From Kiritimatiellia bacterium (GTDB lineage Bacteria; Verrucomicrobiota; Kiritimatiellia; JAAZAB01), in NCBI GenBank assembly GCA_040767085.1, contig JAXGPF010000010.1, positions 1 to 64,000 of the forward strand: a stretch of DNA of 64,000 nt, written 5' to 3'. Both the position numbers and the translations under genes were made by a program. The notes beneath the pieces are model-generated. The model searched no databases. It saw only the letters and a list, made by a program, of their open reading frames with translations, and was not told the DNA's origin. This document shows, piece by piece, positions 4,118-47,335 of this stretch (position 1 is its first letter; each line of letters begins with the position of its first letter).

Positions 4118-4123
4118 GATAAT

Positions 4124-4322
4124 TTAAGCAGAAGGCGGACGAGAAGTATTTGAACAGAAGACTGAACAAGGCATGGAAGGGTGGCAGAGACGGAGGATTT
4201 GAAAAGAAGCGGAACAAGGGCGGCACAAGGGTTTTTTGGGTATTGAACAGAAGGCGGAGTCCGGCAAAGCCGGACGAAGGGTGGCGGGGACAGAGTTGTT
4301 TTACAGAAGGCGGAACAAGCAA
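4124..4322. repeat. Mosaic intergenic repeat: several degenerate TTGAACAGAAGGCGG(AACAAGG) units plus the hairpin GTCCGGC-AAA-GCCGGAC
   Basis: The unit recurs about 5 times here and at ~7763 (reverse), 15741, 20060 (reverse) and 21483 (reverse). Confidence 0.7.
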
Positions 4323-4596
4323 AGAAATGGCGTGTCTCAAAAACCAGCGCTTTTTCCCGCGCCTCATAAGCTTCCGCCGCGCATGCACCCCGCCTCAAGC
4401 CGGTTTCGCCGTGCTCCTGCGGGTCACCGCCAGATATAAGGAACGGGATATCGACGTACTGTGGCGGGTCGCCGCCTGATACAGATCAATGATGCGGCCC
4501 GGGCAGAATTTGCTCGGTTGTTTCATTTTCAACTAGAATTACGCCCTGATACAATTTTTAAATGCGTTTTAAGCCATTACCTTAAAGGATAAACAC

Positions 4597-5931
4597 ATGA
4601 CTCCAAAAATCACGCTCAGAACTTGGATAATGATATGCGCGGTTTTAATGCTGGCATTTGTTTATCAGCAAAATTTTATGCATAATTTTATGAAGGTTGG
4701 GAAAAAACCAGTTGCCGGCAGATGGCAGGCGGAAGTATTTGAGACCTACCAAAGCGACACCGCCATGCACGTTCCCATTATGTTGCAACAGGTCAAAAAT
4801 GATGGCGCCAAGCGTTTGCTTTATCCGATGCCATGTTACGCCCCTGGAACCGAAACAAATTATTATCCATCATGTTACGGTTTGCAAGGCAAAGTGGCGG
4901 GATTGCTATGGCTGGCGTCGCGCTCCGATTTGGATGTTCATGTCAAAAGAATGCAAACAGGTTTGACTTTTCTTACCGGCTTAATATTGTCTTTGTTTTT
5001 AATTAAAATATCCCGGGAATTCGGCTGGATAACGGGTGGAATATTCTTTTTGTTAAGCCTGTCATCCGTCTGGATGGTCTTTGCCGCCAGAAATCTTTAT
5101 CATGTATTTGCCACATGCCTGATGCCGTTTGCATATACATGGTTAAGATTTGAATGTTATGCTGACCGCCGGCGTTCACCGGCGCCACTGTTTGTCATTA
5201 CCGGGTTGTTAGTGTTTATCCGCGCCTTATGTTCGTATGAATACATAACCAATGTCATACTGGGAGCAACTATCGGCCCGGTTTATTTTTTGATATTGCG
5301 AAAAGCCGGGTTGCGCGCAATCGCCAGGTGGGGCATCGGACTTTGCCTTGCTGGCGCGGCTGGTTTTGGCGCGGCATTAGCGCTGCATTTATTGCAATCC
5401 GCATGGTCATTCGGCTCGTTTGCGGACGGCGTTGCAGCTTTGCGTGATGTCGCGTTCGCAAGAAGTTTCGGTGATGACGGCGGAGTAAGATCAGCCATCT
5501 CAAATGTCCCGCTGTTAGCAATCATTGATGCGTACCTCTTGCAAAACGCCTACAGCATTCCTCTGGCCGGATCCCGCACATCAATTTTATTGATGATTGG
5601 AACCGCTTGTGCGATCACCACATTTTTAACGATTGCCGCGGTGGCATGGTTCATGGAATATTACCCGAAAGTCGGGAATAGTGAAAAATATCAGCGTTTA
5701 TTTGCATTAACGCTGACAACATTCTGGGCAATGTGCTGCACATTTACGTGGCCGTTACTCATGAAAGGTCACATGTATCACCACATACATATGGCGCCAA
5801 AGTTGTTTTATATTCCATTTCTGCTGACATACGGCGTATTGATCGGGAGTATTATAGAAACCGCGATGCGCGCATTCTGGCCTTTCCGCCCTTTGGAAAA
5901 TTCCTGCGCAAAAAAAGCTAAAAAGAAATGA
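4597..5931 (+). CDS. Hypothetical polytopic membrane protein (possibly GT-C-like)
   Basis: 444 aa with many hydrophobic helices; AAGGA RBS upstream; ATGA overlap with the next gene. Confidence 0.7.
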   Translation: MTPKITLRTWIMICAVLMLAFVYQQNFMHNFMKVGKKPVAGRWQAEVFETYQSDTAMHVPIMLQQVKNDGAKRLLYPMPCYAPGTETNYYPSCYGLQGKVAGLLWLASRSDLDVHVKRMQTGLTFLTGLILSLFLIKISREFGWITGGIFFLLSLSSVWMVFAARNLYHVFATCLMPFAYTWLRFECYADRRRSPAPLFVITGLLVFIRALCSYEYITNVILGATIGPVYFLILRKAGLRAIARWGIGLCLAGAAGFGAALALHLLQSAWSFGSFADGVAALRDVAFARSFGDDGGVRSAISNVPLLAIIDAYLLQNAYSIPLAGSRTSILLMIGTACAITTFLTIAAVAWFMEYYPKVGNSEKYQRLFALTLTTFWAMCCTFTWPLLMKGHMYHHIHMAPKLFYIPFLLTYGVLIGSIIETAMRAFWPFRPLENSCAKKAKKK

Positions 5932-7403
5932 GCAACGACAACAAAAACGGAAAAGTAGTAATCCTGGGCGCCGGGCCGGCCGGCTGCGCCGCCGGGTATG
6001 ATCTGACCAAACACAATGCTGATGTCGTGCTGATTGAACGGTTGAGCCAGGTTGGCGGATTATCACGCACAATCAATCGCGGTAACGCCAAATATGATAT
6101 AGGGCCCCACCGTTTTTTTACCACGTCCGCAAAGGTGCGCGCCTTATGGGACGAAGTCGGGGGTAAATCACTGAAAGTGGTGCCGCGCATGACCCGCATT
6201 CTTTTCAACAACCACCTGTTCAATTACCCTTTACAACCTTTAAACGCTTTTATGGGGCTGGGCGTGTTGCGCAGCCTTGCCGCCATTACAAGCTACACCA
6301 AATCCAAGGCGCGCGTCGCATACGCTCCCCGCACGCCGCAGAACTTTGAAGAATGGGTCATCGATCAGTTTGGCAACACGCTGTATCGGACTTTTTTTAA
6401 GACTTACACGGAAAAGGTTTGGGGAATTCCATGTTCGGATATTTCGACAAAATGGGCATCACAACGCATCAAAGGATTAAACCTCAGCCAGGCAATTATC
6501 AACGCGTTACGCAAAACATCCGGTAGCGGGATCAAAACCCTGATAGATCACTTCATTTATCCATCCGATGGTTGTGGTTCAATCTACGAAAAACAAGCTG
6601 AAATAATTCTTCAAAAAAAAGGGCGGCTTCTGAAAAACACAGAGGTTGTTGCCGTCCGCCATGACGGCGCTGGGCGCATAACCGGCGTCGATCTGGCTAC
6701 CGCTGAAGGAATTAGCGCCATAGGTGGTGATTACTTCATTTCCACCATCCCGCTCACCGACCTGGTAAAAGCTATGCGCCCTTTGCCTCAATCACATGTT
6801 TTGAAAGCGGCGGACCAATTGAAATATCGCACCCATATTTCCGTAAATCTGCTGGTAGCCGGAAAATTGTTCACGGACAACTGGATTTACGTGCACAGCC
6901 CGTCGGTCAAAGTGGGACGCATCGCAAATTACCGTAATTTTTCCAACATGATGCATCATGACGCAGACATTACCCCTTTAACATTCGAATACTTCGTTTT
7001 CGATAATGACGCCATTGATAGTTTAACCGACAATGCCCTGATAGAGTTGGCGGTAACAGAAGGCTCAGCATGCAAATTGCTGCCCGGTGGCGTCGAAAAA
7101 ATATTGGACGCATTTGTTGTCAGAAATAAACAAGCATATTGCGTGATGTCCAAGGGCTTCGAGGCTGCCCAAAACATTCTGCGCGAATACACCGCGTCAT
7201 TTTCAAATCTTCAAGTGGCGGGACGGGCGGGAATGTTCAAATACAACAATCAGGATCATTCCATTATGACCGGCCTTTTAGCCGCTGAAAATGCCTTGGG
7301 TGGCAAGCACGACGTCTGGTCCGTTAACATTGATGCAGCATACCAGGAATCCGGCGCGGCGCCCAACCTGTGTGATGCTGATCGCGAGGAAATGAAGGTA
7401 TAA
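5928..7403 (+). CDS. FAD/NAD(P)-dependent oxidoreductase, UDP-galactopyranose mutase/protoporphyrinogen oxidase-like
   Basis: VVILGAGPAG Rossmann motif, DIGPHRFFT, YTEKVWG and GRAGMFKYNNQDHS. Confidence 0.85.
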   Translation: MSNDNKNGKVVILGAGPAGCAAGYDLTKHNADVVLIERLSQVGGLSRTINRGNAKYDIGPHRFFTTSAKVRALWDEVGGKSLKVVPRMTRILFNNHLFNYPLQPLNAFMGLGVLRSLAAITSYTKSKARVAYAPRTPQNFEEWVIDQFGNTLYRTFFKTYTEKVWGIPCSDISTKWASQRIKGLNLSQAIINALRKTSGSGIKTLIDHFIYPSDGCGSIYEKQAEIILQKKGRLLKNTEVVAVRHDGAGRITGVDLATAEGISAIGGDYFISTIPLTDLVKAMRPLPQSHVLKAADQLKYRTHISVNLLVAGKLFTDNWIYVHSPSVKVGRIANYRNFSNMMHHDADITPLTFEYFVFDNDAIDSLTDNALIELAVTEGSACKLLPGGVEKILDAFVVRNKQAYCVMSKGFEAAQNILREYTASFSNLQVAGRAGMFKYNNQDHSIMTGLLAAENALGGKHDVWSVNIDAAYQESGAAPNLCDADREEMKV

Positions 7404-7656: not shown

Positions 7657-7780
7657 CGCCTTCCGCCCTTGTTACGCCTTCCGTGAAGGATCAGAGGGGC
7701 AAAGGGTTCAGTTTTCAGGCGTAAAACCCTAAAACGTTAAACCTTAAAACTTGCAAATTTCTGCCTTCTGTTCAGAATTC
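7657..7780. repeat. Mosaic intergenic repeat (modules D-A plus inverted E)
   Basis: AGGGGCAAAGGGTTCAGTTTTCAGGCGTAAAACCCTAAAACGTTAAACCTTAAAACTTGCAAATTTC, nearly identical to ~10654-10720. Confidence 0.9.
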
Positions 7781-8954: not shown

Positions 8955-8990
8955 TTTATCCGCAGATTTCGCAGATTTGCGCAGATTATT
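8955..8990. repeat. 9-10 bp triplet repeat module F (ATCCGCAGATTTCGCAGATTTGCGCAGATT)
   Basis: Near-exact reverse complement at ~12610-12643; degenerate inverse copy at ~9872-9891. Confidence 0.8.
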
Positions 8991-9082: not shown

Positions 9083-9502
9083 TTATGTTATTTCTGGCGT
9101 ATGAATCGTTAATGCGGGAAATATAGGTGTAAAATCTTTGCGGTTACTGGTTAAAAGCCCTTTGCGTTCAGATGCAAAGGCGCCGATTAGAATGTCGGCC
9201 ACGGGCCTGCGCACGGTTTTATGTTCGCGCTTGTAATTTACATAACGCGACCAGGCCTTATGCGCCTGCTGCGTGTCTTCCCATCTCCAGGGTGTTGAAT
9301 AATTTATGCCTACATTTTCCAGAAAATCGTTCTGACGGACACGGTCTCCCAGGAATGCTGGGGCTAATTCCACGTAACTGACGGGACACAACGCCAGTCC
9401 GTCCCTGGCAAATTGATCCAGCAAGGATGCGGACGACTTGCCGAATTCCGGATCGTCATCAAGCACATCAATCACCAGGCACGTATCTACGACCCACGCC
9501 AT
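9083..9502 (-). CDS. vapC: PIN-domain (VapC-like) ribonuclease toxin
   Basis: MAWVVDTC N-terminus, ..YVEL.., ADILIGAFA and LLTSNRKDF PIN motifs; start moved to the ATG at 9502. Confidence 0.88.
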   Translation of the reverse strand: MAWVVDTCLVIDVLDDDPEFGKSSASLLDQFARDGLALCPVSYVELAPAFLGDRVRQNDFLENVGINYSTPWRWEDTQQAHKAWSRYVNYKREHKTVRRPVADILIGAFASERKGLLTSNRKDFTPIFPALTIHTPEIT

Positions 9503-9611
9503 TAAATTTCCCCTGAATTCACTATCATCCCATAGATACGGTTTATCACCGGAAAACGGCAATATTCTTTACGGAAATTGGAGTTTGGCGTAAATCACAG
9601 ATTCAGAAATA

Positions 9612-9952
9612 CACACACAAAGACACGAAGGCACAAAGATTTACACAAAATGATCAGATATATTACCAATTCCATGTCCGCCTGGCGGACAGCGCGGCAT
9701 CCCACTCAATTACTTTACATATATGCTCGTTTCTGTGCCTGTGCTTGCCTGCCGTAGCTTTAGCGAAGGCGGGCTGTGTCCGCCATAGCATCCGAGCGAA
9801 GGCAGATGGCTAATCCCTCCATCCGCTCATCCGTCTCGGTGGTAAAATATCCGCATCTTCTTTATGGCCGAAAATCTGCGTAATCTGTGGACAAAAAAAG
9901 GTTCCGAGGTAAATTATCCTAGTCTTCTTTGTGGCTTAGCGGCTTTGTGAGA
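9612..9952. repeat. Cluster of short repeat and hairpin modules between the antitoxin and toxin genes
   Basis: CACAAAGACACGAAGGCACAAAGA (~9616) with a degenerate inverse at ~9926-9950; palindrome-like CCTGCCGTAGCTTTAGCGAAGGCGGG (~9748); AATCTGCGTAATCTGTGGA (~9873). Confidence 0.65.
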
Positions 9953-10000
9953 GCATAAAGTGATTTTCTGTGGGATGCTACTGAAATTGGCTCCTAGGAT

Positions 10001-10252
10001 TCAGGTTTCCCCTTTACGTATTTCCGCCATCCATTCAGCAGTCGGGCGGACAGGGCGAAAGCGTTTGGCATAACCCCGCATGGCCATGGCGCCTTTGGCG
10101 CACTGGCGGGATTTGAGAAAAATCCTGCATTCGTTGCGGGAAACAGGCTCCCAGACAAGTTGTTGCCCCGGATCAACCTGCATCTGCTTCCGGATTTGTG
10201 CCGGTATGGAAATTTGTCCGCGTTCAGTTACCGTTGTGACTTGTGTTTTCAT
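10001..10252 (-). CDS. AbrB/MazE/SpoVT-family antitoxin
   Basis: TTVTERGQISIPAQIRKQMQVDPGQQLVW is a typical swapped-hairpin AbrB domain; 83 aa; lies upstream of the PIN gene. Confidence 0.9.
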   Translation of the reverse strand: MKTQVTTVTERGQISIPAQIRKQMQVDPGQQLVWEPVSRNECRIFLKSRQCAKGAMAMRGYAKRFRPVRPTAEWMAEIRKGET

Positions 10253-10308: not shown

Positions 10309-10775
10309 GAAAGGGGCAAAGGCACAAAGGGGCAGTGTCTGGCCCTTTCGCGTTCTTTGCGTTCTTTTGGGGTGAATTTCTTCCCCTTCGTGCTCTTCGT
10401 GCCCTTCGTGGTTAAATCACAAAGGGGCAAAGGCACAAAGGGGCAGTGTCTGGTCCTTTTGCGTTCTTTGCGTTCTTTTGGGGTGAATTTCTTCCCCTTC
10501 GTGCTCTTCGTGTCCTTCGTGGTTAAATCAGAAAAGGGGCAGAGGATCAAAGGCACAAAGGGGCAGTGTCTGGTCCTTTTGCGTTCTTTGCGTTCTTTTG
10601 CGGTGAATTTCTTCCCCTTCGTGCTCTTCGTGCCCTTCGTGGTTAAATCACAAAGGGGCAAAGTGTTCAGTTTTCAGGCGTAAAACCATAAAACGGAAAC
10701 CCTTAAAACTTACAAAATTCCGCCTTCGCGTTTTTTGCGGTGAATTTCCCCGGTCTTGTTTCGTGGTTATTTCCC
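10309..10775. repeat. Mosaic repeat: three tandem D-B-C units (periods 111 and 120 bp), then A and degenerate B/C
   Basis: GGGCAGTGTCTGG starts at 10330, 10441 and 10561; the units are nearly identical. Confidence 0.95.
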
Positions 10776-10839
10776 GGATTTTGTGAATTTTGCTCTTTTT
10801 TGTGGATTTTTCCAACATTTCCTGTCAATAATCGTAACC

Positions 10840-12279
10840 ATGTCATGGAATCACGTAAAAAAACACTGGCAAGAGCCCAATGGTTATGCGGCGGTATTGC
10901 GCATGGGCATACCGCTGGTCATCAGCATGGGCGCCACGACCTTGATGCTGTTTACCGACCGCGTATTCCTGGGGCGGTACAGCGTGGATGCCATCGCCGC
11001 CGCGGGGCCGGCGGGGGCCATGGCATTTGTCTTTCTCGCCTTTTTCGGCGGCATCGGAAGTTATGCCAGCACTTTCATTGCCCAGTATTCCGGCGCCAGG
11101 CGGCCGCGGCAGATTGGCCGGACCCTGTGGCAGGCGCAATACTTTACCCTGCTGGCCGGCGCCTTGCTCGCCATCGGCGCCGGGATGGCGCGCCCCATGT
11201 TCGAATTAATCGGCCATGCCCCGGCCATCCGCGAACTGGAAATCGTCTATTTCCGCATCCTGATGCTCGGCGGCATCACCCATGTCTGGCATGATGTCCT
11301 GGCGTGTTATTTTTCCGGGCGCGGAGTTACCCGTCCCATCATGCTGGTCAGTATCGCCGGAGCAGTTCTCAATATCCCCCTGGATTATGTCATGATCTAT
11401 GGCTGGGGTCCCATCCCGGAGCTGGGCGTGGGCGGCGCCGCCGGCGCCACGGTCATCAGCCAGACCTTCATCTGCGTTCTACTGGCCGCCATGGTTTTCC
11501 GCCGCCGGAATGACCTCGTCCATGGCGTTATCAGCGAACGCAAACTGGATTTGGAATTATTCCGGCGGCTGATGCGGTTCGGCCTGCCCAGCGGTGTGCA
11601 AGTCGCGGTGGACACCACCGCTTTTTCGTTTTTTCTTTTGATCATCGGACGGCTGGGCCGGATGGAACTGGCGGTGAGCAATATTGTCTTTTCCATCAAC
11701 TCGCTGGTTTTCATGCCCATGCTGGGACTTTCCATCGCCACCGCCACGCTGGTCGGCCAGGCAATCGGCAGGGAAAAGCCCGACGAGGGCGTAACCGCCA
11801 CCCGTAATGCCCTGCATTTGACGATGCTGTATATGGGCGCAATGGCATTGCTGCTGGTGCTGTTTCCCAATCCCCTTTTACGACTGTTTCTGCCGCCCGG
11901 GTCCGCGCCGGCGGAAGCGGCGGAAATTCTGTCCACCGGAGCAATGCTGCTGGTTTTCGTGGCGATTTACAGTCTGCTGGACACCATGAATGTCGTCTAT
12001 TCCGGCGCATTGCGCGGGGCGGGCGATGTGCGATTCGTCACCTGGACGATCGCCATCCTCTCCTTCGGAATCATGGTTGTGCCATCCTGGATTGCCGTGG
12101 AGTGGCTGGGCGGCGGCATTTACACCGTCTGGACCATCGGCTCGTTTTATATCTGCGTGCTCGCACTGGTGTTCTGGCGGCGGTTTCGCCAGGGGCGATG
12201 GAAGTCCATGCGGGTGATTGAACCGGCCGTGGGGCTGGTGCAAGGGGGCGTGGGCCCGGGCCGGAATGTGATGACCTGA
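10840..12279 (+). CDS. MATE family efflux transporter
   Basis: FTDRVFLGRYSVDAIAA, LNIPLDYVMIYG..PELGVGGAAGAT and GALRGAGD motifs; ~12 TM segments; start at MSWNH. Confidence 0.93.
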   Translation: MSWNHVKKHWQEPNGYAAVLRMGIPLVISMGATTLMLFTDRVFLGRYSVDAIAAAGPAGAMAFVFLAFFGGIGSYASTFIAQYSGARRPRQIGRTLWQAQYFTLLAGALLAIGAGMARPMFELIGHAPAIRELEIVYFRILMLGGITHVWHDVLACYFSGRGVTRPIMLVSIAGAVLNIPLDYVMIYGWGPIPELGVGGAAGATVISQTFICVLLAAMVFRRRNDLVHGVISERKLDLELFRRLMRFGLPSGVQVAVDTTAFSFFLLIIGRLGRMELAVSNIVFSINSLVFMPMLGLSIATATLVGQAIGREKPDEGVTATRNALHLTMLYMGAMALLLVLFPNPLLRLFLPPGSAPAEAAEILSTGAMLLVFVAIYSLLDTMNVVYSGALRGAGDVRFVTWTIAILSFGIMVVPSWIAVEWLGGGIYTVWTIGSFYICVLALVFWRRFRQGRWKSMRVIEPAVGLVQGGVGPGRNVMT

Positions 12280-12304
12280 GCGCCATGCGGGACGCATTCT
12301 TCCG

Positions 12305-12675
12305 CTGGAGGGCGAACTTGGGCGGCGCAAGTTTTAAGGTTTTCCGTTTTATGGTTTTACGCCTGAAAACTGAACACTTTGCCCCTTTTCTGATTTAACC
12401 ACGAAGGACACGAAGATCACGAAGGGCGGAAAATTCACCGCAAAAGAACGCAAAGAACGCGAAAGTCCAGACACTGCCCCTCTGATCCTTTGCCCCTTCT
12501 GCCCATTTTGCCGATTTTGCTTGTGTTTGACACTGCGTTTCATAAAGTATGTTGCATTCGCCCGGCGGAAGACCAGCCCAGTCAGGCGCGTCGCCGGCTT
12601 TGGACTTGGAATCTGCGCAAATCTGCGTAATCTGCGGATAAAAATGATCCGCGGATGAAACAGATTCACACAGAT
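12305..12675. repeat. Mosaic repeat in reverse orientation (E' fragment, A', C', B', D') plus module F
   Basis: Reverse complement of modules at 10540-10715; AATCTGCGCAAATCTGCGTAATCTGCGGATAAA at ~12610. Confidence 0.9.
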
Positions 12676-12733
12676 GAGATGGAAGGCCTCAATTAGGATT
12701 GCGGGCTTGCGCCTGCTTCAGGAAGGAACATGC

Positions 12734-14719
12734 ATGAAAGCAGTGGTTTTGGCCTATCACAATATCGGATGCGCCGGACTGGAAGCCCTCTTGCGCCATG
12801 GATTCGATATCCAGGCGGTGTTCACACACAAGGACGATACCAGGGAAAAAATCTGGTTCGGTTCCGTAGCGGAACAGGCGGCGCGGCATCGTTTGCCGGC
12901 ATTTGCCCCGGACAACATCAATCATCCCATCTGGCGCGACCGTATCCGGGCTTTGCAGCCCGATGTGATTTTTTCGTTTTATTACCGCCACATGGTTAAG
13001 CCGGATATCCTGGAAATCCCGCCCCTGGGCTGCCTGAATCTGCACGGATCGCTGTTGCCCAAGTACCGCGGCCGCTGCCCGGTCAACTGGGTGCTGGTAA
13101 ACGGCGAACGCGAGACGGGGATGACCTTGCACTACATGACGCCGAAACCCGACGATGGCGATATTGCCGCGCAGGTCAAGGTGCCGATAGCGCCGGATGA
13201 CACTGCCGCCACCCTGTTCGACAAGATGACCAGCGCCGCCGTGGAACTGCTCGACGACGCCCTGCCGCGCCTGCTCCAGGGCAAGTTGCCGCGCCGGCCG
13301 CAGGACCACTCCCAAGCCACGTATTTCGGCGGCCGCCGGCCGGAAGACGGCGCTATTGACTGGAACAAGGACGCTGCATCCATTGACAACCTCGTGCGCG
13401 CCGTGACGCTGCCCTATCCGGGCGCCTTTACCTTCCTCGGCAGCCGCCGCCTGCTGGTCTGGCGCGTCGCCGTGGCGCCGGCTCCATCGGCATCCGCTGC
13501 GCCGGGAACCATCCTGAGCGCGAATCCGCTGGTGGTCGCCGCCGGGAAACAGGCTTTGCGCATCGAGCAGGCGCAGCCCGAAGACGATATCCTGATGGAC
13601 GGCGCCCAGGCGGCCGCCGCCATGGGCTTGAAGCCCGGTATCGTCCTGGGCCGGCGCGCGGCGCCGGCGCAGCGCAAGACCAGCGTCCTGATCCTGGGCG
13701 TCAACGGCTTTATCGGCAATGCCTTGAGCGAACGGCTGCTGCAGTCGAAAAAATACGTGGTGCATGGCATGGACCTGCACTCCGATAAGATCGCGCGCCT
13801 GATCGGGCAGCCGGATTTCTTTTTTGATGAGGGCGATATCTCCATCCACCGCGAGTGGATCGAGTACCATGTCCGCAAGTGCGACGTGATCCTGCCCCTG
13901 GTGGCCATCGCCACGCCCATCGAATACACGCGCAATCCGTTGCGGGTATTCAACCTGGATTTCGAGGAAAACCTCCGCGTGGTGCGGTATTGCGTCAAGT
14001 ACGGCAAACGCATCATCTTTCCCTCCACCTCGGAAGTGTATGGCATGTGCGACGATGAGGAGTTCGACGAGGACCATTCCCGGCTGATCCTGGGACCTAT
14101 CCGGATGCAGCGCTGGATTTATTCCTGCTCGAAACAGCTTTTGGACCGCGTGATCTGGGCGTATGGCCAGAAGGAAGGGCTGCGCTTTTCGCTGTTCCGT
14201 CCATTCAACTGGATCGGACCGCGCCTGGACAGCCTGACTTCCGCCCGCATCGGCAGCTCCCGCGCCATTACCCAGTTAATCCTGAACCTGGTGGAAGGCA
14301 CGCCGATCCGGCTCGTGGACGGCGGTGCGCAGAAACGCTGTTTTACCGACGTCAAGGACGGGGTGGAGGGATTGTTCCGGATCATTGAAAACGCCAACGG
14401 CGGCAGCGATGGCGAGATTTTCAACCTGGGCAACCCCGACAACGAAGCCAGCATCCGCGAATTAGCCGACCTGCTGGTGGCCAAGTTTGCCAGGCATCCC
14501 TTGCGGCCAAAATTCCCGCCCTTCGCCGGCATCCAGGAAGTGGAAAGCAGACTGTACTACGGCAAGGGCTACCAGGATGTCGTGCATCGCCGCCCGAGCA
14601 TCCGCAAGGCCCGGCGCATCCTGGGCTGGAATCCCGCCATCGGCCTGGAACAATCGGTGGACGAGACGCTCGATTTCTTCCTGCAGGAGGCCGTGGCATC
14701 CGGCGAATTCGGGCGGTGA
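12734..14719 (+). CDS. arnA: Bifunctional UDP-L-Ara4N formyltransferase / UDP-glucuronate dehydrogenase (decarboxylating)
   Basis: [13 protein letters not shown] and [13 protein letters not shown] in the formyltransferase half; [29 protein letters not shown] and [12 protein letters not shown] in the dehydrogenase half. Confidence 0.97.
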
Positions 14720-14751
14720 CATCCTAAAATCCCGTCACGGATTCAGGTGAA

Positions 14752-15633
14752 ATGCAAATCGGGCTAAGGGTAGATGTGGACACATTGCGCGGCACGCGCC
14801 TGGGCGTGCCGGTAATTTGCCGGACGCTGGCCGAATATGGCTGGCGCGCGTCATTCTTCTTTTCCGTGGGCCCGGATAACATGGGCCGGCACCTCTGGCG
14901 GCTGGTGCGGCCGCGGTTCCTGATCAAAATGCTCCGCAGCAACGCGCCGGCGCTTTACGGCTGGGATATCCTCCTGCGGGGCGTCTTCTGGCCCGGTCCG
15001 CTGATCGGGCCGCGTTGCGCGGCCGTAATCCGCGATACTGCCGCCGCCGGCCATGAAATCGGCCTGCATGCCTGGGATCACCAGGCCTGGCAGGCGCGCG
15101 TGGATCGTTGGCCGGACCATATTCTGCGGCGTCAACTCCGCCGGGGATACGACCTGCTGAGCGGCATTCTCGGCCGCCCGCCCACCGCCTCCGCCGCGCC
15201 GGGCTGGCGGTGCACGCCGCGGGCGCTGTCGGTCAAGGATGAGTTCGGCTTCGCCTATAACAGCGATTGCCGGGGCGAGACGGTTTTTTGTCCCCGCGTC
15301 GATGGGCGCCGGCTGCGGACGCCCCAGGTTTCGGTCAACCTGCCGACCTACGACGAATTGGTCGGACGCGATGACGTTACCGCCGCGAATTACAACCAGC
15401 GCCTGCTGGACCTGATCCAGCCGGACCGTTACAACGTCTTAACAATTCATGCCGAGGTGGAAGGCATTGCCGCCGCGGAACTTTTCCGCGAGTTTGCCGC
15501 CGCACTGGCCGCGCGCGGCGGACATTGCTGCCCGCTGGGCGAGTTGGCTGGCCAACCGGAAGATTTGCCATCCGGCATCCTGGCTCCCGGCCGGGTGCCC
15601 GGCCGGGAGGGCTGGGTGGCGGTCGCGCATTGA
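14752..15633 (+). CDS. arnD: Undecaprenyl-phosphate L-Ara4FN deformylase
   Basis: IGLRVDVDTLRGTRLGVP, SVGPDNMGRHLWRL, GLHAWDH and TIHAEVEG motifs; follows arnA. Confidence 0.95.
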   Translation: MQIGLRVDVDTLRGTRLGVPVICRTLAEYGWRASFFFSVGPDNMGRHLWRLVRPRFLIKMLRSNAPALYGWDILLRGVFWPGPLIGPRCAAVIRDTAAAGHEIGLHAWDHQAWQARVDRWPDHILRRQLRRGYDLLSGILGRPPTASAAPGWRCTPRALSVKDEFGFAYNSDCRGETVFCPRVDGRRLRTPQVSVNLPTYDELVGRDDVTAANYNQRLLDLIQPDRYNVLTIHAEVEGIAAAELFREFAAALAARGGHCCPLGELAGQPEDLPSGILAPGRVPGREGWVAVAH

Positions 15634-15699
15634 TTGGCGCCGCGCCGGTGGGCGGGAACGTACCGGCAGATCAGGTGGGAAGCGGATGTTTTTACCACG

Positions 15700-15960
15700 G
15701 AGTCCGGCAAAGCCGGATGAAGGCGGCGGAATCGGAGGATTTGAACAGAAGACTCACCACAGGTTCGCCCTCCAGGGATCAAAGTGTTCAGTTTCAGGCG
15801 TAAACCCATAAAACGGAAAACCTTAAAACGTACAAATTTCCGCTTTCGCGTTCTTTGCGTTCTTTTGCGGTGAATTTTCCGCCCTTCGTGATCTTCGTGT
15901 CCTTCGTGGTTAAATCAGAAAAGAGGCAAAGTGTTCAGTTTTCAGGCGTAAAACCATAAT
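15700..15960. repeat. Mosaic repeat, forward (hairpin, E-A-B-C-A fragment)
   Basis: CACAGGTTCGCCCTCCAGGGATCAAAGTGTTCAG... through CTTCGTGTCCTTCGTGGTTAAATC; ends just before the ATG at 15965. Confidence 0.92.
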
Positions 15961-15964
15961 CTGG

Positions 15965-16861
15965 ATGCCGGATATGTCGGAATTGCAACAAATATTACGC
16001 GTGGCGGATGCCTGGCGCGATTACGAATTGATCGATTGCGGCGCTGGACGCCGCCTGGAACGCTGGGGCAAGTTCAAACTGATCCGGCCCGACCCCCAGG
16101 CCATCTGGCCCTGCGCCGCGCCGGAGCAGTGGCGCGGCGCGGACGCCTGTTACCACCGCAGCGCCGAGGGCGGCGGGCATTGGGAAATGTCGCAGCCGTT
16201 GCCGGAATTCTGGACGGTGGCTTACCGCCGCCTGACTTTCAAAGTGCGCCCGACCGGATTCAAACACATGGGGTTGTTCCCCGAGCAGGCGGTAAACTGG
16301 GACTGGATTGACGCGCAAATCCGCGGCGCGGGGCGGCCGGTCAGATTGCTCAACCTTTTTGGCTATACCGGCGCGGCCACCGCCGCCGCCGCCGCCGCCG
16401 GGGCGCAGGTCTGCCACGTGGACGCGGCGCGCGGCATGGTGCAATGGTGCCGGGAAAATCTGGCGCTCTCCGGCCTGGGAGCGGCGCCGGTGCGGTATAT
16501 CGTGGACGATTGCCTGGCTTTCATCCGCCGGGAACAGCGGCGCGGCCGGCGCTATGACGCCCTGGTGATGGATCCGCCTTCCTACGGCCGCGGCAGCCGG
16601 GGTGAAGTATGGAAACTGGAAGACCAACTGGCGCTGCTGCTGGGCGAATGCCGGAAACTGCTTTCGGATACCCCCCTGTTTTTCCTGGTCAACGCTTACA
16701 CCACCGGCTTGTCGCCCATCGTGCTGGTGAACCTGCTGCGCGATCTCATGCCCGCGCCAGCCGGCCGGATCGCCGGGGGCGAGTTGGGCTTGCCCGCCAG
16801 TGCGGGCGGCCGGATTCTGCCCTGCGGGATTTACGCGGCCTGGGAAATAGGCAGCGGATAA
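15965..16861 (+). CDS. Class I SAM-dependent methyltransferase (RlmI/RlmK-related)
   Basis: DYELIDCG..RRLERWG, FKHMGLFPEQAVNW, LLNLFGYTG and MDPPSYG motifs. Confidence 0.9.
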   Translation: MPDMSELQQILRVADAWRDYELIDCGAGRRLERWGKFKLIRPDPQAIWPCAAPEQWRGADACYHRSAEGGGHWEMSQPLPEFWTVAYRRLTFKVRPTGFKHMGLFPEQAVNWDWIDAQIRGAGRPVRLLNLFGYTGAATAAAAAAGAQVCHVDAARGMVQWCRENLALSGLGAAPVRYIVDDCLAFIRREQRRGRRYDALVMDPPSYGRGSRGEVWKLEDQLALLLGECRKLLSDTPLFFLVNAYTTGLSPIVLVNLLRDLMPAPAGRIAGGELGLPASAGGRILPCGIYAAWEIGSG

Positions 16862-16869
16862 ATGAACGG

Positions 16870-17050
16870 AGCGGAAATCGGAATTTAACCACGAAGGACA
16901 CGAAGATCACGAAGGCGGGGAAAATTCACCGCAAAAGAACGCAAAGAACGCGAAAGCGGAAATTTGTAAGTTTTAAGGTTTAACGTTTTATGGTTTTACG
17001 CCTGAAAACTGAACACTATGATCCCTGGAGGGCGAACCTGCGGTGAGCTG
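16870..17050. repeat. Mosaic repeat, reverse (C'-B'-A'-E')
   Basis: 16883-17047 is a near-perfect reverse complement of ~15753-15914. Confidence 0.92.
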
Positions 17051-17155
17051 ACCCGGAAATTAGCCACAAGATAAAGAAGGTTCACACAAAGGTAGTATTT
17101 TAGTAGGGCGGAAGGTGTGTGAGTGCGGAAGTTGCCATAGAATACGCAGCGACTA

Positions 17156-19756: not shown

Positions 19757-19767
19757 CCAGGCAATGA

Positions 19768-20075
19768 CGCGAAGCGGAAATTTATACGTTTTAAGGTTTA
19801 CCGTTTTATGGTTTTACGCCTGAAAACTCAACACTTTGCCCCTTTCCTGATTTAACCACGAAGGACACGAAGAGCACGAAGCAAACAATATTCACCACAA
19901 AAGAACGCAAAGAACGCGAAAGCGGAAATTTGTACATTTTAAGGTTTTCCGTTTTATGGTTTTACGTCTCAGAACTGAACAATTTGATTCCTGGAGGGCG
20001 AACCTGTGGTGAGCCTTCTGTTTGCCCCCCCAAAAAAAACCTTATTCTGCCCTTGTTCCGCCTTCTGTTCAAACA
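19768..20075. repeat. Mosaic repeat, reverse (A'-C'-B'-A'-E'), internal period ~148 bp
   Basis: GCGGAAATTT(A/G)TAC..TTTTAAGGTTT..GTTTTATGGTTTTACG occurs twice (~19774 and ~19922). Confidence 0.92.
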
Positions 20076-20103
20076 AACGGAACCATGCTTCACGTCCCGG
20101 CTC

Positions 20104-21224: not shown

Positions 21225-21244
21225 GCTTTTCCTTTCATAAATTG

Positions 21245-21500
21245 GAAAATTTACCGCAAAAGAACGCAAAGAACGCGAAAGGTCCAGATATTACCCCTCT
21301 GATCCTTTGCCCCTTTTCTGATTAACCACGAAGGACACGAAGAGCACGAAGCAAGCAATATCCACCACAAAAGAACGCAAAGAACGCGAAAGCGGAAATT
21401 TGCAAGTTTTAAGGTTTTCCGTTTTATGGTTTTACGACTGAAAACTGAACACTTTGATCCCTGGAGGGCGAATCTGTGGTGAGCCTTCTGTTCAAAATAT
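21245..21500. repeat. Mosaic repeat, reverse (B'-D'-C'-B'-A'-E')
   Basis: ~21320-21490 closely matches ~19850-20020. Confidence 0.92.
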
Positions 21501-22526: not shown

Positions 22527-22644
22527 ATGGGTCTCCTGCAGTTCGAATTGTTCCTGGTTTTGCCGCCGGCGCGATTCTGTCCAAATCGGCATGTTTACCA
22601 TAACCTGAGCAAGCCCGGGTGTCAACGGAGAACGCAATTGCGGG

Positions 22645-22830
22645 ATACAGAGGGCACGAAGGGCGGGAAATTCACCGCAAATGAACGCAAAGATCGCGAA
22701 AGCGGAAATTCAGAATTTAACCACGAAGGACACGAAGATCACGAAGGGTGGGAAAGTCACCGCAAAGAAGGCAAAGATCGCGAAAGGTCCAGATACTGTG
22801 CCTCTGTGCCTTTGCCCTCTCCCGCCCCTC
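22645..22830. repeat. Mosaic repeat, reverse (degenerate C'-B'-C'-B'-D')
   Basis: TTTAACCACGAAGGACACGAAGATCACGAAGGG at ~22716; two CACCGCAAA..GCAAAGATCGCGAAAG copies. Confidence 0.88.
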
Positions 22831-25026: not shown

Positions 25027-25070
25027 GCAATTTGTATGTAGCAATTTGCATGAAGGCAATCTGTAGAGCC

Positions 25071-41385: not shown

Positions 41386-41397
41386 CTGATCCATCCG

Positions 41398-42581: not shown

Positions 42582-42661
42582 CTTTGTCCTCCTCGGGCTA
42601 CTCTACCCAATTGAGGACTCTCTTTCAATACGGTCCAGTTTTTAGGGAGAACGTCAGTTTA

Positions 42662-42810
42662 GGGAAAAAGGGGCAGAGTCACAGAGGGGCAGAGTCACAG
42701 AGGGGCAAAGGCGGAGAGGGGCAGAGGATCAAAGGGGCAGAGAGAAAAGCAATCTGTCTATGATCCTTTGATCCTTTGTGCCTTGGTCACTGCTGAGGGG
42801 GCAAAGGCCC
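42662..42810. repeat. Module D array (8-bp units AGAGGGGC/AAAGGATC/AGAGTCAC) with a short inverse copy
   Basis: About ten 8-bp units, followed by TGATCCTTTGATCCTTTGTGCC. Confidence 0.8.
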
Positions 42811-42832
42811 CGCACACTGAACACTTCCATCG

Positions 42833-45292: not shown

Positions 45293-45295
45293 GGA

Positions 45296-46111: not shown

Positions 46112-46113
46112 AC

Positions 46114-47091
46114 TCAGCCCGCGTCCGGATCGAGGGTTTCGCGGATCACGTAAATCGGCTTGTTTTGCGATTCGTGGTAAGTGCGAATCTGGATTTCCGC
46201 CAGCAGTCCCATGCTTATGAAATGCAGGCCGAAGAACACCAGCATGAAAGACGTCATCACCCAGAATGGCCGTTTCAGCAGGGTGGCGGCGAAAGCGGTG
46301 CCGAAGAGATTGGCCGAGAGGTTGCCCAGCACCATGCCCGCCAGCAGCAAAATGCCGGCCGCGCCGAGGAAAAGTCCGATCCTGCCGAAAATCTGGATTG
46401 GACTTTTGCTGTAACGCAGAAGGAAGGTCACGGTGAACAAGTCCAGGATCACGCGTGTAATCCGGGAAAGCCCGTACTTCGAGCGCCCCATGCGACGGGG
46501 ATGGTGATTGACCACCACTTCCGCCACCGACCCGCCCACCCAGTGGGCCAGGGCGGGGATGAAACGGTGCATTTCGCCGTACAGATGCACGTTCTGCATG
46601 ACATCCCGGCGGTAGGCTTTCAGTGTGCAGCCGAAATCGTGCAAGGCCACGCCGGTCAACCGGCTGATCAGGCGGTTGGCGACCATGGATGGGAGGCGGC
46701 GGTGGATGAAGGCGTCCTGGCGGTCTTTGCGCCAGCCGCTGACGACGTCGAAGCCCTGGTCAATCTGCGCGAGCAGCAGCGGGATGTCGTCGGGGTCGTT
46801 TTGCAGATCGGCATCCATGGTGATGATGACCTTGCCGCGGGCATGATGCATGCCGGCCGACATGGCGGCGGTCTGTCCGAAATTCCGGCGGAAGCGGATC
46901 AAACGCAAGCCCCGCAGCCGGGCGGACTCTGCCTTGAGCTTGCTCCAGGTGCCATCGGTGCTGCCGTCGTCCACCATGATGATTTCATAAGACTGGGGCA
47001 GTTTGGACAATGCTTCGCCCAGCTTGGCGCATAACGGCGCAACACATTCTTCCTCGTTGAAAATCGGCACGATAATGGATATGTCCGGCAT
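46114..47091 (-). CDS. GT2 polyprenol-phosphate glycosyltransferase (ArnC/GtrB/DPM1-like)
   Basis: ISIIVPIFNEE, VDDGSTD, RRNFGQTAA, MDADLQNDP and MHRFIP motifs; two C-terminal TM segments. Confidence 0.92.
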   Translation of the reverse strand: MPDISIIVPIFNEEECVAPLCAKLGEALSKLPQSYEIIMVDDGSTDGTWSKLKAESARLRGLRLIRFRRNFGQTAAMSAGMHHARGKVIITMDADLQNDPDDIPLLLAQIDQGFDVVSGWRKDRQDAFIHRRLPSMVANRLISRLTGVALHDFGCTLKAYRRDVMQNVHLYGEMHRFIPALAHWVGGSVAEVVVNHHPRRMGRSKYGLSRITRVILDLFTVTFLLRYSKSPIQIFGRIGLFLGAAGILLLAGMVLGNLSANLFGTAFAATLLKRPFWVMTSFMLVFFGLHFISMGLLAEIQIRTYHESQNKPIYVIRETLDPDAG

Positions 47092-47181
47092 ATGTTTTCC
47101 TTCCGTCTGCGTCTTCCCCGGCATGGGGTGTCAATACCGATAGTCTAGATGATTTTATAAGGGAGTCAAGCCGAACAGGGA

Positions 47182-47335
47182 CCGCAGAGGCGGAGAGGGG
47201 CAAAGGATCAAAGGGGCAAAGGGGTAGAGTGAAGAGATGAGGCAATCCGTCTCTGATCCTTTGATCCTCTGTGCCTTTGTCACGGCTGAGCTGTTTTGCC
47301 TTTCGCGTTCCTTGCGTTCTTTGCGGTGAATTTAC
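47182..47335. repeat. Mosaic repeat (D, D', B)
   Basis: AGAGGGGCAAAGGATCAAAGGGGC...TGATCCTTTGATCCTCTGTGCC...TTTCGCGTTCCTTGCGTTCTTTGCGGTGAATTT; resembles 42700-42790. Confidence 0.82.

What the first reader, a model, noticed from the sequence alone, without database searches (positions are those of the whole stretch)
4118..47335. Modular mosaic intergenic repeat system built from 7-9 bp tandem modules
Seen directly: about 13 intergenic loci (4124, 7657, 8955, 9612, 10309, 12305, 15700, 16870, 19768, 21245, 22645, 42662, 47182) are assembled from a small set of modules. A = TGTTCAGTTTTCAGGCGTAAAACCATAAAACGGAAAACCTTAAAAC. B = TTTCGCGTTCTTTGCGTTCTTTTGCGGTGAA. C = CTTCGTGCTCTTCGTGTCCTTCGTGGTTAAA. 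D = 8-bp AAAGGGGC/AGAGGATC/AAAGGCAC arrays. E = TTGAACAGAAGGC..CACAGGTTCGCCCTCCAGG. F = AATCTGCGCAAATCTGCGTAATCTGCGGATA. Most modules are short-period doublets or triplets, not palindromes. B, C and F share one design on the purine-rich strand: a T-rich lead, then (A/T)CC, then three ~9-nt units. Modules join in preferred orders (E-A-B-C, C-A, C-D-B) in either orientation. Classical REP/BIME elements are palindromic and tied to RAYT transposases; this family is not palindromic and no cognate mobiliser is encoded in the window. Inference: either a non-autonomous mobile/recombination cassette system or an array of protein-binding sites. I recall similar short triplets flanking small accessory genes such as GxxExxY or four-helix-bundle genes in other genomes, but cannot verify that here.
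Basis: partly seen in the sequence, partly recalled or inferred. Interest (0 to 1): 0.8.

Follow-up and report, generated by a model that had tools for sequence, protein, structure and literature searches.

The report
Orphan arms of small-gene cassettes
The repeated intergenic modules are gene-less copies of the short tandem-repeat "arms" that elsewhere flank two families of tiny accessory genes, which points to an undescribed and very widespread kind of selfish gene cassette.

Summary
Modules A, B and C occur 5, 10 and 9 times in the window, against 0 expected. The same stretch is found in metagenomes of 8 studies. No Rfam family matches.

The modules are not free-standing. B, C, F and the 9612 unit share one design: a T-rich lead, NACC, then three 9-10 nt units. 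They match the inverted arms that flank GxxExxY (TIGR04256, PD-(D/E)XK) genes in this genome and its congeners. The 8-nt D arrays match the arms of four-helix-bundle (TIGR02436, '23S rRNA IVS protein') genes.

Inverted arms are general: 21 of 29 GxxExxY loci and 8 of 10 four-helix-bundle loci. Module C occurs as an exact 26-mer in many phyla, mostly as a gene-less hairpin or a solo copy.

Orthologous intergenic sites are empty, hold a different cassette, or hold a gene-less hairpin in sister genomes.

Best reading: these are orphan arms of IVS-like selfish cassettes, joined into composites and copied between intergenic sites by recombination. How they move is not shown. I rate it a new variant of a known kind, of moderate to high interest.

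The parts
4118..4330 (+). Purine-rich GAACAGAAGG / GGAACAAGG units plus a small hairpin (GAGTCCGGCAAAGCCGGAC, 4255-4280). This is the left border of two genes that congener G004 lacks.
   Evidence: synteny
7657..7780 (-). Reverse-orientation GAACAGAAGG-type units, a short D piece and a module A copy (7705-7750). This is the right border of the same two extra genes.
8955..8989 (+). Module F, purine-strand form (TTATCCGCAGATTTCGCAGATTTGCGCAGATT). It matches the upstream arm of a GxxExxY gene in G001.
   Evidence: 91% over 35 nt
9606..9643 (+). CACAAAG/CACGAAG triplet. It matches both arms of the GxxExxY gene at C11:47045-47395 of this genome.
   Evidence: 95% over 38 nt
9863..9900 (+). Module F copy (CGAAAATCTGCGTAATCTGTGGACAAAAA), a genome-wide family of about 28 copies.
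10310..10663 (+). Three tandem (D-B-C) higher-order units of 111-120 nt. Copy number varies between metagenomes.
   Evidence: joint 10542->10649 in runs X1 and X4
10664..10745 (+). Module A (10664-10709), the linker and a partial B, directly upstream of the MatE gene.
12304..12520 (-). Partial E, A (12331-12376), C (12394-12424), B (12434-12464) and a D array, all inverted relative to 10310-10745. Together the two blocks bracket the MatE gene.
12610..12644 (+). Module F (AATCTGCGCAAATCTGCGTAATCTGCGGATAAAAA). It is shared by many other genomic contexts in the metagenomes.
   Evidence: depth 478 and many loose ends
15698..15959 (+). Hairpin, E (15740-15784), A (15785-15829), linker, B (15844-15874), C (15884-15914), short D and a partial A (15932-15959). 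It fills an intergenic region that is about 12 bp long in G004.
16884..17050 (-). C (16884-16914), B (16925-16955), A (16970-17015) and E (core 17024-17045).
19788..20075 (-). A (19788-19833), short D, C (19851-19881), B (19891-19921), linker, A (19936-19981), E (core 19990-20011) and GAACAGAAGG units.
   Evidence: an RNA-library contig covers 19849-20051
21250..21495 (-). B (21250-21280), D, C (21321-21351), B (21361-21391), A (21406-21451) and E (core 21460-21481), between the ADH and RidA genes.
22643..22817 (-). Degenerate C plus B (22671-22701), C (22716-22746), degenerate B and D (22796-22817).
42662..42800 (+). D-array hairpin: a purine-rich 8-nt array, a loop containing CAATCTGTCTATG, then the inverted array. 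No gene lies inside.
   Evidence: fold z = -3.8; D matches the four-helix-bundle gene arms of G003
47182..47333 (+). A second D-array hairpin (47182-47290) and a B-type triplet (47300-47333).

Best explanation
The modules are gene-less ('orphan') copies of the terminal arms of two kinds of very small gene cassette.

A complete cassette is about 0.45 kb. It has a left arm, an ORF of about 110-125 codons and a right arm that is the inverted copy of the left. Each arm is built of short tandem units.

- Cassettes with a GxxExxY protein (TIGR04256, an intact PD-(D/E)XK nuclease core) have arms of the form T-rich lead, NACC, then three 9-10 nt units. Modules B, C, F and the 9612 unit are of this type.
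- Cassettes with a four-helix-bundle protein (TIGR02436, the '23S rRNA intervening-sequence protein' family) have arms made of 7-8 nt unit arrays. Module D is of this type, and the TAAAACC half of A resembles it.
- E is one half of a separate palindromic REP-like element.

In this lineage orphan arms greatly outnumber gene-bearing cassettes. They have been joined into composites (E-A-B-C-D...). The composites have been copied into many intergenic sites and amplified in tandem.

Shown: the sequence identity of modules and arms; the inverted-arm architecture; empty, filled and swapped states at orthologous sites; and presence across phyla. Inferred: that spread occurs by homologous recombination or gene conversion between arms, perhaps started by the GxxExxY nuclease. 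Also inferred: that the arms of a full cassette pair in the transcript, as in an rRNA intervening sequence, so that the element is tolerated. On this reading the window's copies need no host function of their own. Their visible effect is to serve as recombination substrates.
For: 1. In this genome, 4 of 4 PF13366 genes and 2 of 2 PF05635 genes are flanked by inverted arrays, each gene with its own unit type. The gene at C2:160165-160515 has 5 C-type arms upstream and 4 downstream. NCBIfam names the families TIGR04256 and TIGR02436.

2. BLAST of cassette arms against the window gives these matches. The C arm hits 9 sites at 93-100%. The B arm of a G002 GxxExxY gene hits 9 sites at 88-94%. F arms hit 8955 and 12610. 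The C11 gene's arm hits 9606-9643 at 95%. D arms of four-helix-bundle genes of G001 and G003 hit 10312, 10423, 10535, 22796, 42688 and 47209.

3. Inverted flank similarity reaches z >= 5 in 21 of 29 GxxExxY loci from one-per-genome sampling of the phylum (1 of 30 dropped for Ns). It does so in 8 of 10 four-helix-bundle loci of relatives.

The phyla include Planctomycetota, Verrucomicrobiota, Chloroflexota, Cyanobacteria, several Proteobacteria classes, Desulfobacterota, Acidobacteriota and others, and some are isolate genomes. Of 136 matches, 11 abut a GxxExxY gene, 58 are gene-less hairpins and 67 are solo or other.

5. GxxExxY proteins next to C arms in loci L069 and L087 (both titled Planctomycetota) and L135 (title not shown in the table) are 74-83% identical to this genome's C-type protein. 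Three paralogues with other arm types in this genome were compared and are 34-44% identical to one another.

6. The deacetylase|methyltransferase spacer is about 12 bp in congener G004. It is 331 bp of E-A-B-C-D-A here and 348 bp of different modules in G002.

7. One orthologous site was compared across six genomes. It holds a GxxExxY cassette in G002 and G011. In G004 it holds a decayed remnant with a nested F module. In G001 and G003 it holds a four-helix-bundle cassette with D arms. In this genome it holds a gene-less D hairpin.

8. The MatE gene lies on the opposite strand in 3 of 3 congeners where it could be compared. In the window it is bracketed by inverted module blocks.

9. When the C-type cassette is folded as RNA, a 24-bp stem between the two arms closes the whole ORF, in both the MFE and the centroid structure (z = -2.6). 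The Coxiella IVS is described as a 428-nt selfish element. It has an S23p ORF and a 28-bp terminal inverted-repeat stem cut by RNase III (PMC4990558, passages read).
Against: - Module A gave no hit to any gene arm at E <= 1e-3. Six A-bearing loci of relatives showed D-A-E composites when read by eye, with no ORF or family scan run on them. E belongs to a different, palindromic family. So part of the mosaic is not explained by the two cassette types.
- No transposition or homing event, target duplication or clean excision was seen. The 'filled' and 'empty' states come from genomes about 11-18% diverged, so the direction of change is inferred.
- Hairpin loops of C elements carry a conserved palindrome of their own (TTCGGAG..TTAAT..CTCCGAA). 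It is not derived from the gene ends, so orphan hairpins are not simple deletion derivatives.
- A four-helix-bundle protein is not an enzyme, so a nuclease-driven mechanism cannot be common to both cassette types.
- An exact 26-mer held across phyla could mean selection for a function that I have not identified.
- An RNA-library contig covers 19849-20051, so a role for the transcript is not excluded.
Confidence: 0.7

Rival explanations
1. The arrays come first. On this view they are an autonomous repeat class, like cyanobacterial STRR, that spreads or is kept for its own reasons. The small genes are secondary colonists that insert ('home') into the centre of palindromic array pairs.
For: Gene-less forms far outnumber gene-bearing ones: 255 array loci against 6 cassettes in this genome, and 125 of 136 C matches across phyla. 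C hairpins have their own conserved loop, which is not derived from the gene. The GxxExxY protein keeps the catalytic residues D67, E77 and K79 and gives a confident nuclease-fold model (pLDDT 96.3).
Against: Each protein subtype travels with its own arm type, across phyla as well. That is expected if gene and arms move as one unit. The four-helix-bundle genes show the same architecture without being nucleases. This rival differs from the best explanation mainly in the direction of events, and the data do not decide that.
Confidence: 0.2
2. The modules are binding-site arrays for a host DNA-binding protein (a nucleoid-associated protein or a regulator). The phased A/T tracts and the 8-10 bp unit spacing would serve the neighbouring genes.
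For: The units repeat at about one helical turn and contain short A or T runs. Module sequences are conserved between genera.
Against: The same genes sit about 12 bp apart with no modules in G004, and carry different modules in G002. Both orientations occur. The flanking-gene arrangement of 218 arrays (co-directional 125, divergent 53, convergent 40) resembles that of all 1398 gaps (773, 358, 267). The neighbours are unrelated housekeeping genes.
Confidence: 0.07
3. The modules act as RNA. They could be processing, stability or translation-coupling elements in polycistronic transcripts, or protein-sponging small RNAs built on their repeated GGA/AAGG motifs.
For: A contig from an RNA library covers 19849-20051 with 2 differences, and F-module contigs occur in RNA libraries. 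Full cassettes and D hairpins fold significantly. STRRs have been suggested to affect transcript stability (PMC2670836, passage read).
Against: The composite has no significant structure on either strand. No Rfam family matches at E <= 1. The modules occur in both orientations relative to transcription. An RNA library can hold DNA, and contigs show neither strand nor ends (caveats printed).
Confidence: 0.1
4. The modules are a REP/BIME-like or MITE family, mobilised in trans by a RAYT (Y1) or IS transposase encoded elsewhere in the genome.
For: The genome has 7 Y1_Tnp matches and an IS present in about 32 copies. E is half of a palindromic REP-like element.
Against: The B, C, F, A composites are not palindromic. 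The six Y1-like genes that I examined are flanked by a different inverted repeat (GGGTCA...TGACCC), not by these modules. The IS ends are unrelated. No terminal inverted repeats or target duplications bound the composites.
Confidence: 0.03

Closest known systems
23S rRNA intervening sequences that carry an S23p ORF (Coxiella, Leptospira)
   Same: A selfish element of about 430-440 nt. One small ORF of the four-helix-bundle family lies between terminal inverted repeats that form a stem of about 28 bp, and the distribution is sporadic and horizontal (PMC4990558, passages read). The cassettes seen here have the same size and plan.
   Different: The cassettes here lie between protein genes, not in rRNA. 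Their arms are built of short tandem units. GxxExxY genes share the plan. The window holds only orphan arms. RNase III cutting was not tested.
Cyanobacterial STRR (short tandemly repeated repetitive sequences)
   Same: Intergenic arrays of short tandem units that can form hairpins, with function still unknown (PMC2670836, passage read). In a Sphaerospermopsis genome, 4 of 4 four-helix-bundle genes lie between inverted heptamer arrays.
   Different: The units here are 8-10 nt, not 7, and the host is not a cyanobacterium. I found no paper linking STRRs to these genes. The published STRR consensus sequences are recalled, not checked.
BIME/REP of enterobacteria and BOX elements of pneumococci (recalled from memory, no paper read)
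   Same: Mosaic intergenic repeats assembled from a small set of modules in preferred orders, with content varying at conserved sites.
   Different: Those modules are palindromic units or boxA-B-C. REPs are tied to RAYT transposases. No tandem 9-nt triplets or small-gene cassettes are involved.
MITEs and solo ends derived from autonomous elements
   Same: Many gene-less derivatives per autonomous copy. Hairpin forms have inverted arms.
   Different: No recognised transposase, no target duplication seen, and the hairpin loops are not deletion remnants of the gene.
Free-standing PD-(D/E)XK homing endonuclease genes (for example I-Bth0305I, PDB 3r3p)
   Same: A small nuclease-fold ORF with intact catalytic residues sits inside a symmetric site, and gene-less versions of that site exist.
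   Different: Only weak structural similarity: no PDB hit at E <= 0.001, 3r3p at rank 42, best hit Cas4 SSO0001 at E 3.8e-3. No cleavage data.

Membership tests
REP/BIME (RAYT-associated palindromic repeats) | The unit is an imperfect palindrome able to form a hairpin. | tested here: not met
   The composite 15734-15964 folds no better than shuffles (z +1.1 and -1.3). Only E-type elements elsewhere and the D hairpins are palindromic.
REP/BIME (RAYT-associated palindromic repeats) | A cognate RAYT (Y1 transposase) gene is flanked by the repeats. | tested here: not met
   There are 7 Y1_Tnp matches in the genome. The 6 that I examined are flanked by a different inverted repeat.
MITE | Terminal inverted repeats and a target-site duplication. 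| tested here: inconclusive
   The composites have no terminal inverted repeats. C and D hairpins do. Target duplications could not be read at 11-18% divergence.
STRR-type short tandem intergenic repeats | Intergenic arrays of 2 or more tandem copies of a unit of about 7 nt, dispersed in many copies. | tested here: met
   There are 359 arrays of period 7-10 nt. 219 of the 359 lie outside crude ORFs that cover 90% of the genome. The unit length here is 8-10 nt rather than 7.
IVS-type selfish element (S23p ORF within inverted repeats) | A small ORF of the PF05635/TIGR02436 family lies between terminal inverted repeats of about 25-30 bp. | tested here: met
   Met for the cassettes at C23:84278 and C25:253844 of this genome and for 8 of 10 loci in relatives. 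The window's own copies lack the ORF.
IVS-type selfish element (S23p ORF within inverted repeats) | Located in a 23S rRNA helix and excised by RNase III. | tested here: not met
   All copies examined lie between protein-coding genes. RNase III cutting cannot be tested with these tools.
GxxExxY cassette (proposed here, not a described family) | A TIGR04256 gene flanked by inverted arms of the form T-rich lead, NACC, about three 9-10 nt units. | tested here: met
   4 of 4 genes in this genome and 21 of 29 in the phylum sample. Window modules B, C, F and the 9612 unit match such arms, but without the gene.
Homing endonuclease gene | A catalytically intact nuclease. | tested here: met
   D67 and K79 are invariant and E77 is at least 90% conserved in 30 sequences. 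The model has pLDDT 96.3 with a PD-(D/E)XK core.
Homing endonuclease gene | It cuts the gene-less allele and is copied into it. | not testable with these tools
   Gene-less hairpins exist and one orthologous site shows gene-bearing and gene-less states. No cleavage or conversion event was observed.
Any Rfam RNA family | A covariance-model match. | tested here: not met
   0 matches at E <= 1 over 4000-48000 on both strands.

The most novel reading that the evidence does not exclude
The tandem-unit arms may be portable recognition and homology pads shared across bacterial phyla. A GxxExxY nuclease would cut gene-less palindromic arm pairs of its own type. The cassette would then be copied in through the roughly 30-nt arms, so that any genome already seeded with orphan arms can receive cassettes from distant phyla. 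Four-helix-bundle cassettes would use the same pads. On this reading the classical cyanobacterial STRRs, unexplained since 1990, are the orphan arms of such cassettes, and the ORF-bearing rRNA intervening sequences are the same elements landed in rRNA.
Probability: 0.25. Interest if true: 0.85.

Novelty: new variant of a known kind. Interest (0 to 1): 0.68.

Why it matters
GxxExxY and four-helix-bundle ('23S rRNA IVS') proteins are among the commonest small genes of unknown function in bacterial genomes. Short tandem intergenic repeats such as STRRs have lacked an explanation for decades.

This window ties the two together. The repeats are the arms of the genes' cassettes, and one arm type is held as an exact 26-mer across many phyla. 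That gives concrete tests:
- Does the nuclease bind or cut its own arms?
- Does RNase III excise the cassette from transcripts?

It also gives a practical annotation rule for a large class of intergenic repeats. These repeats break short-read assemblies and cause inversions and intergenic expansion.

Tried and rejected
- Rfam over 4000-48000 found nothing.
- An exact-seed search for inverted repeats 200-900 nt apart was too strict and found only 5 loci. I replaced it with TRF and flank alignments.
- Of the 21 gaps of 200-900 nt between neighbouring arrays, 4 hold the known GxxExxY or four-helix-bundle genes. The other 17 best ORFs were not scanned against family libraries.
- PDB sequence search and PADLOC returned no match for the cassette proteins.
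- Foldseek against the PDB gave only weak nuclease-fold hits, which adds nothing beyond the Pfam assignment.
- I looked for a gene next to module A at six loci of relatives. By eye they show only D-A-E composites; no ORF or family scan was run on them.
- I considered Y1/RAYT genes as mobilisers and rejected them.
- From the read laying, RNA-library contigs cover 22 of 30 bins (X19) and 17 of 30 bins (X20). Contigs cannot show strand, ends or level, and parts without cover say nothing. Several long 'skip' joints between module copies are most likely repeat-induced mis-joins or come from other organisms.
- Literature searches found no paper on repeats flanking these genes: 'GxxExxY', PDDEXK_3/PF13366/TIGR04256, four-helix-bundle/PF05635 terms and STRR terms. 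Subscription journals are outside the library.


Full report
**Observation**

With up to 3 mismatches, A occurs 5 times, B 10 times and C 9 times in the window. None was expected in 100 dinucleotide-preserving shuffles. I read all 13 loci, and each holds modules.

TRF reports the 9-nt triplets, the 8-nt arrays and a 111-nt higher-order unit present 3.1 times at 10310-10663. The larger pattern is a cyclic order: E, A, a 14-nt linker, B, C, a short D, then A again. Composite copies are 89-93% identical over 135-217 nt. No Rfam family matches at E <= 1. The composite has no significant secondary structure on either strand (z +1.1 and -1.3). The D arrays at 42662 and 47182 are hairpins (z -3.8).

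**Reality and spread**

The window is C2:1-64000 of a 4.08-Mb assembly in 28 contigs. Genome-wide, at up to 4 substitutions, A has 11 copies, B 26 and C 34. Of these, 7, 11 and 16 lie on the window's contig.

A self-comparison finds 573 short repeated regions covering 70 kb. K-mer assembly shows many further unit types, for example GAACACTG and AGGGTGTT arrays, beside IS elements, REP-like hairpins and a CRISPR repeat. TRF finds 359 low-GC arrays of period 7-10 nt in 255 loci. Of the 359, 219 lie outside crude ORFs that cover 90% of the genome. The orientation of their neighbouring genes matches that of all intergenic gaps.

The stretch 12301-22300 is held by 20 public runs from 8 studies: sludge, landfill, digester and biofilm metagenomes. 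Contigs from two of these studies match the unique parts with 0 differences. They enter the arrays and break inside them, at the same places in both studies. The arrays are therefore not an assembly artefact.

**What the modules are**

The hits come from many phyla and include isolate genomes such as Herpetosiphon aurantiacus DSM 785 and Stieleria bergensis.

In several of these loci the module runs straight into ATGGAATTCGA..., which is the start of a GxxExxY protein. An inverted copy follows directly after the stop codon. Of 136 matches, 11 abut such a gene, 58 are gene-less hairpins and 67 are solo or other.

The window's own genome has four PF13366 genes, all outside the window, and each lies between inverted arrays of its own unit type:
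- C2:160165-160515 has C-type arms, 5 copies upstream and 4 downstream.
- C11:47045 has a CACAAAG/CACGAAG type, the same as the window's 9612 locus.
- C4:130376 has a CACGGAT type.
- C22:124815, which is frameshifted, has an F-like CGCAGAT type.

Its two PF05635 genes lie between inverted 8-nt arrays, of AGGTGTTA/TAACACCC and GTGTTCAG/CTGAACAC units. NCBIfam names the two families TIGR04256 (GxxExxY protein) and TIGR02436 (four helix bundle protein).

In congeners, B-type arms flank GxxExxY genes (G001:C6, G002:C55) and F-type arms flank others (G001:C52, G004:C31). D-type arrays flank four-helix-bundle genes (G001:C27, G003:C263).

BLAST of all these arms against the window maps the modules as follows:
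- 9 C sites at 93-100%.
- 9 B sites at 88-94%.
- The F sites at 8955 and 12610.
- 9606-9643 at 95%.
- 6 D sites.

A gave no hit at this threshold. Its TAAAACC half only resembles the arrays around the C23 gene, and six A loci in relatives showed D-A-E composites when read by eye; I ran no ORF or family scan on them. E is one half of a palindromic element, GGCTCACCACAGGTTCGCCCTCCA, a loop, then the inverse.

**Generality**

PF13366 genes were found in 31 of 61 genomes sampled across the phylum, this genome included. For 30 loci, about one per genome, the 180 nt upstream and downstream were compared. The inverted alignment beats shuffles at z >= 5 in 21 of the 29 that could be scored (one was dropped for Ns). 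The median score is 36 for the inverted alignment and 18 for the direct one. For four-helix-bundle genes of relatives the figure is 8 of 10.

The arms share a skeleton of a T-rich lead, (A)ACC and about three C-R-C-purine-rich units. The unit sequence differs from gene to gene. The last unit usually supplies the ribosome-binding site next to the ATG.

In a Sphaerospermopsis genome, 4 of 4 four-helix-bundle genes lie between inverted heptamer arrays. The one in Herpetosiphon lies between 8-9 nt arrays. Heptamer arrays of this kind are what the cyanobacterial literature calls STRR, whose function is described as unknown (PMC2670836, passage read).

**Gene and arms travel together**

GxxExxY proteins next to C arms in three loci are 74-83% identical to this genome's C-type protein. 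Two of the loci, L069 and L087, are titled Planctomycetota; the title of L135 was not shown in the table. Three paralogues with other arm types in this genome are 34-44% identical to one another. Thirty aligned proteins keep G24, E27, Y30, E37, D67 and K79 invariant, and E77 nearly so. The AlphaFold model is confident (pLDDT 96.3) and has a PD-(D/E)XK core. Matches to solved structures are only weak: the best is Cas4 SSO0001 at E 3.8e-3, and none reaches E <= 0.001.

**Turnover at orthologous sites**

Congener G004 carries the same genes, with the ArnA-like protein 89% identical. There the deacetylase and methyltransferase genes are about 12 bp apart. The spacer is 331 bp of E-A-B-C-D-A in the window, and 348 bp of other modules in G002.

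G004 gave no match to the window's composite. It is not free of arrays, however.

At the site between an aminotransferase-like gene and a GFO-family oxidoreductase, the content differs genome by genome:
- G002, and G011 of another genus, hold an orthologous GxxExxY cassette with CACAAAG units.
- G004 holds a gene-less remnant of those units with an F module nested in it.
- G001 and G003 hold a four-helix-bundle cassette with D arms.
- This genome holds a D hairpin without a gene (C27:204553-204730).

In every case the element starts at the stop codon of the upstream gene.

The MatE gene lies on the opposite strand relative to the ArnA-like gene in G001, G003 and G004, but not in the window. 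In the window it is bracketed by module blocks in inverted orientation. This fits an inversion by recombination between the blocks. Copy number of the 111-120 nt unit at 10310-10663 varies in two studies (joint 10542->10649).

**How it most likely works**

Shown:
- The window's B, C, F, 9612-type and D modules belong to the same sequence families as cassette arms.
- Cassettes have inverted tandem-unit arms.
- Gene-less arms are the majority.
- Sites gain, lose and swap content.

Inferred:
1. Orphan arms and composites spread by homologous recombination or gene conversion between arm copies. This would explain why content changes at fixed sites, why composites of unrelated modules are copied as blocks, and why arrays amplify in tandem.
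2. In a full cassette the two arms pair in the transcript. Folding the C-type cassette closes the ORF with a 24-bp arm-arm stem in both the MFE and the centroid structure (z -2.6). This is the plan of the Coxiella 23S rRNA intervening sequence: a 428-nt selfish element with an ORF of this same four-helix-bundle family, and a 28-bp terminal stem cut by RNase III (PMC4990558, passages read).
3. The GxxExxY nuclease may start the exchange by cutting gene-less sites.

I hold the identity claim at about 0.7. The specific mobility mechanism is much less certain.

**Against this reading**

- A and E are not explained by the two cassette types.
- No insertion event, target duplication or excision was seen.
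- C hairpin loops carry their own conserved palindrome and are not gene remnants. This fits 'arms first, genes later' as well as the reverse.
- The four-helix-bundle protein is no enzyme.
- Exact conservation of a non-coding 26-mer across phyla may reflect a function that I have not found.
- An RNA-library contig covers 19849-20051. The tool warns that such libraries can hold DNA, and that contigs show neither strand nor ends.

**Rivals**

- A host binding-site or regulatory role is unlikely, given the empty and differently filled orthologous sites, both orientations and no positional preference.
- A REP/RAYT or IS-driven origin is unlikely. The composites are not palindromic, and the six Y1-like genes examined (of 7 matches) carry different flanking repeats.
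- An RNA-level role is not excluded.

**Novelty**

Full-text searches found no paper describing repeats that flank these genes:
- 'GxxExxY' gave 3 papers. The search listed two; I read the passage in one, and it concerns other matters.
- PDDEXK_3 / PF13366 / TIGR04256 gave 2 papers, one of which only lists the family as 'unknown', with multiple transfers.
- The four-helix-bundle, PF05635 and TIGR02436 terms gave 22 papers, of which I read passages from two.
- STRR terms were searched.

Subscription journals are outside the library, so the link may be in print where I could not see it. I file the finding as a new variant of a known kind. It combines dispersed modular intergenic repeats with IVS-type selfish cassettes, and that combination has not, to my knowledge, been described.

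Noticed in passing
window 4597-7403, bordered by 4118-4330 and 7657-7780: Two genes (an unknown 444-aa ORF and an amine-oxidase-like flavoprotein) are missing in congener G004, where the PMT_2-like gene and aroC lie about 30 bp apart. In the window the insert is bracketed by GAACAGAAGG-type modules in inverted orientation, and the first 10 kb have low GC (0.38-0.50).
   Followed up: partly
window 10756-12279 (MatE): The gene is inverted relative to its neighbours compared with three congeners. It lies between inverted module blocks, which points to a repeat-mediated inversion.
   Followed up: partly
window about 9990-10250, minus strand: By eye, a small ORF of about 85 codons looks like an AbrB/MazE-type antitoxin (GQISIPAQIRKQM...). 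It lies upstream of the unassigned 159-aa ORF at 9083-9562. It was not scanned against family libraries.
   Followed up: no
window 23648-25070: An IS copy with an HTH_28/HTH_32 transposase gene (23677-24912). Its end sequences occur about 32 times in the genome. One end carries the palindrome TTTTCCTCCCCCGCGGGGGAGGAAAA (about 57 copies).
   Followed up: partly
window 35395-35766: Three 138-nt coding repeats with a GDFDGDG motif (FG-GAP/VCBS-like by eye) lie inside a large ORF. GC skew is strong at 34-36 kb (0.31).
   Followed up: no
window 12610-12644 (module F): In the landfill metagenome this bin has summed contig depth 478, against 6-20 in neighbouring bins. It also has dozens of loose ends with unrelated flanks, including in RNA libraries. 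The F module is therefore shared by many other genomes in those communities.
   Followed up: partly
G000 outside the window (for example C25:228356, C26:85994, C22:154636): Seven Y1-transposase-like matches. The six that I examined are flanked by GGGTCA...TGACCC inverted repeats, a separate element family.
   Followed up: partly
G000 genome-wide (k-mer consensus): A 119-nt palindromic MITE-like element (CTGCGTCATTCTC...GAGAATGACGCAG, about 28-40 copies). There is also a repeat resembling a type I-E CRISPR repeat (GTTTTCCCCACGCCCGTGGGGATGGTCCCC, about 37 copies).
   Followed up: no
IMG/VR loci L205-L223: Module C occurs as an exact pattern in 19 viral or proviral contig stretches (21 matches: 8 hairpins and 13 solo, none next to the gene). 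These are possible vehicles for transfer between hosts.
   Followed up: partly
L024, L091, L047, L075 (other phyla): C-type and B-type triplets sit side by side in Desulfobacterota and Binatia genomes too. The B-C adjacency seen in the window is therefore not peculiar to this lineage.
   Followed up: no
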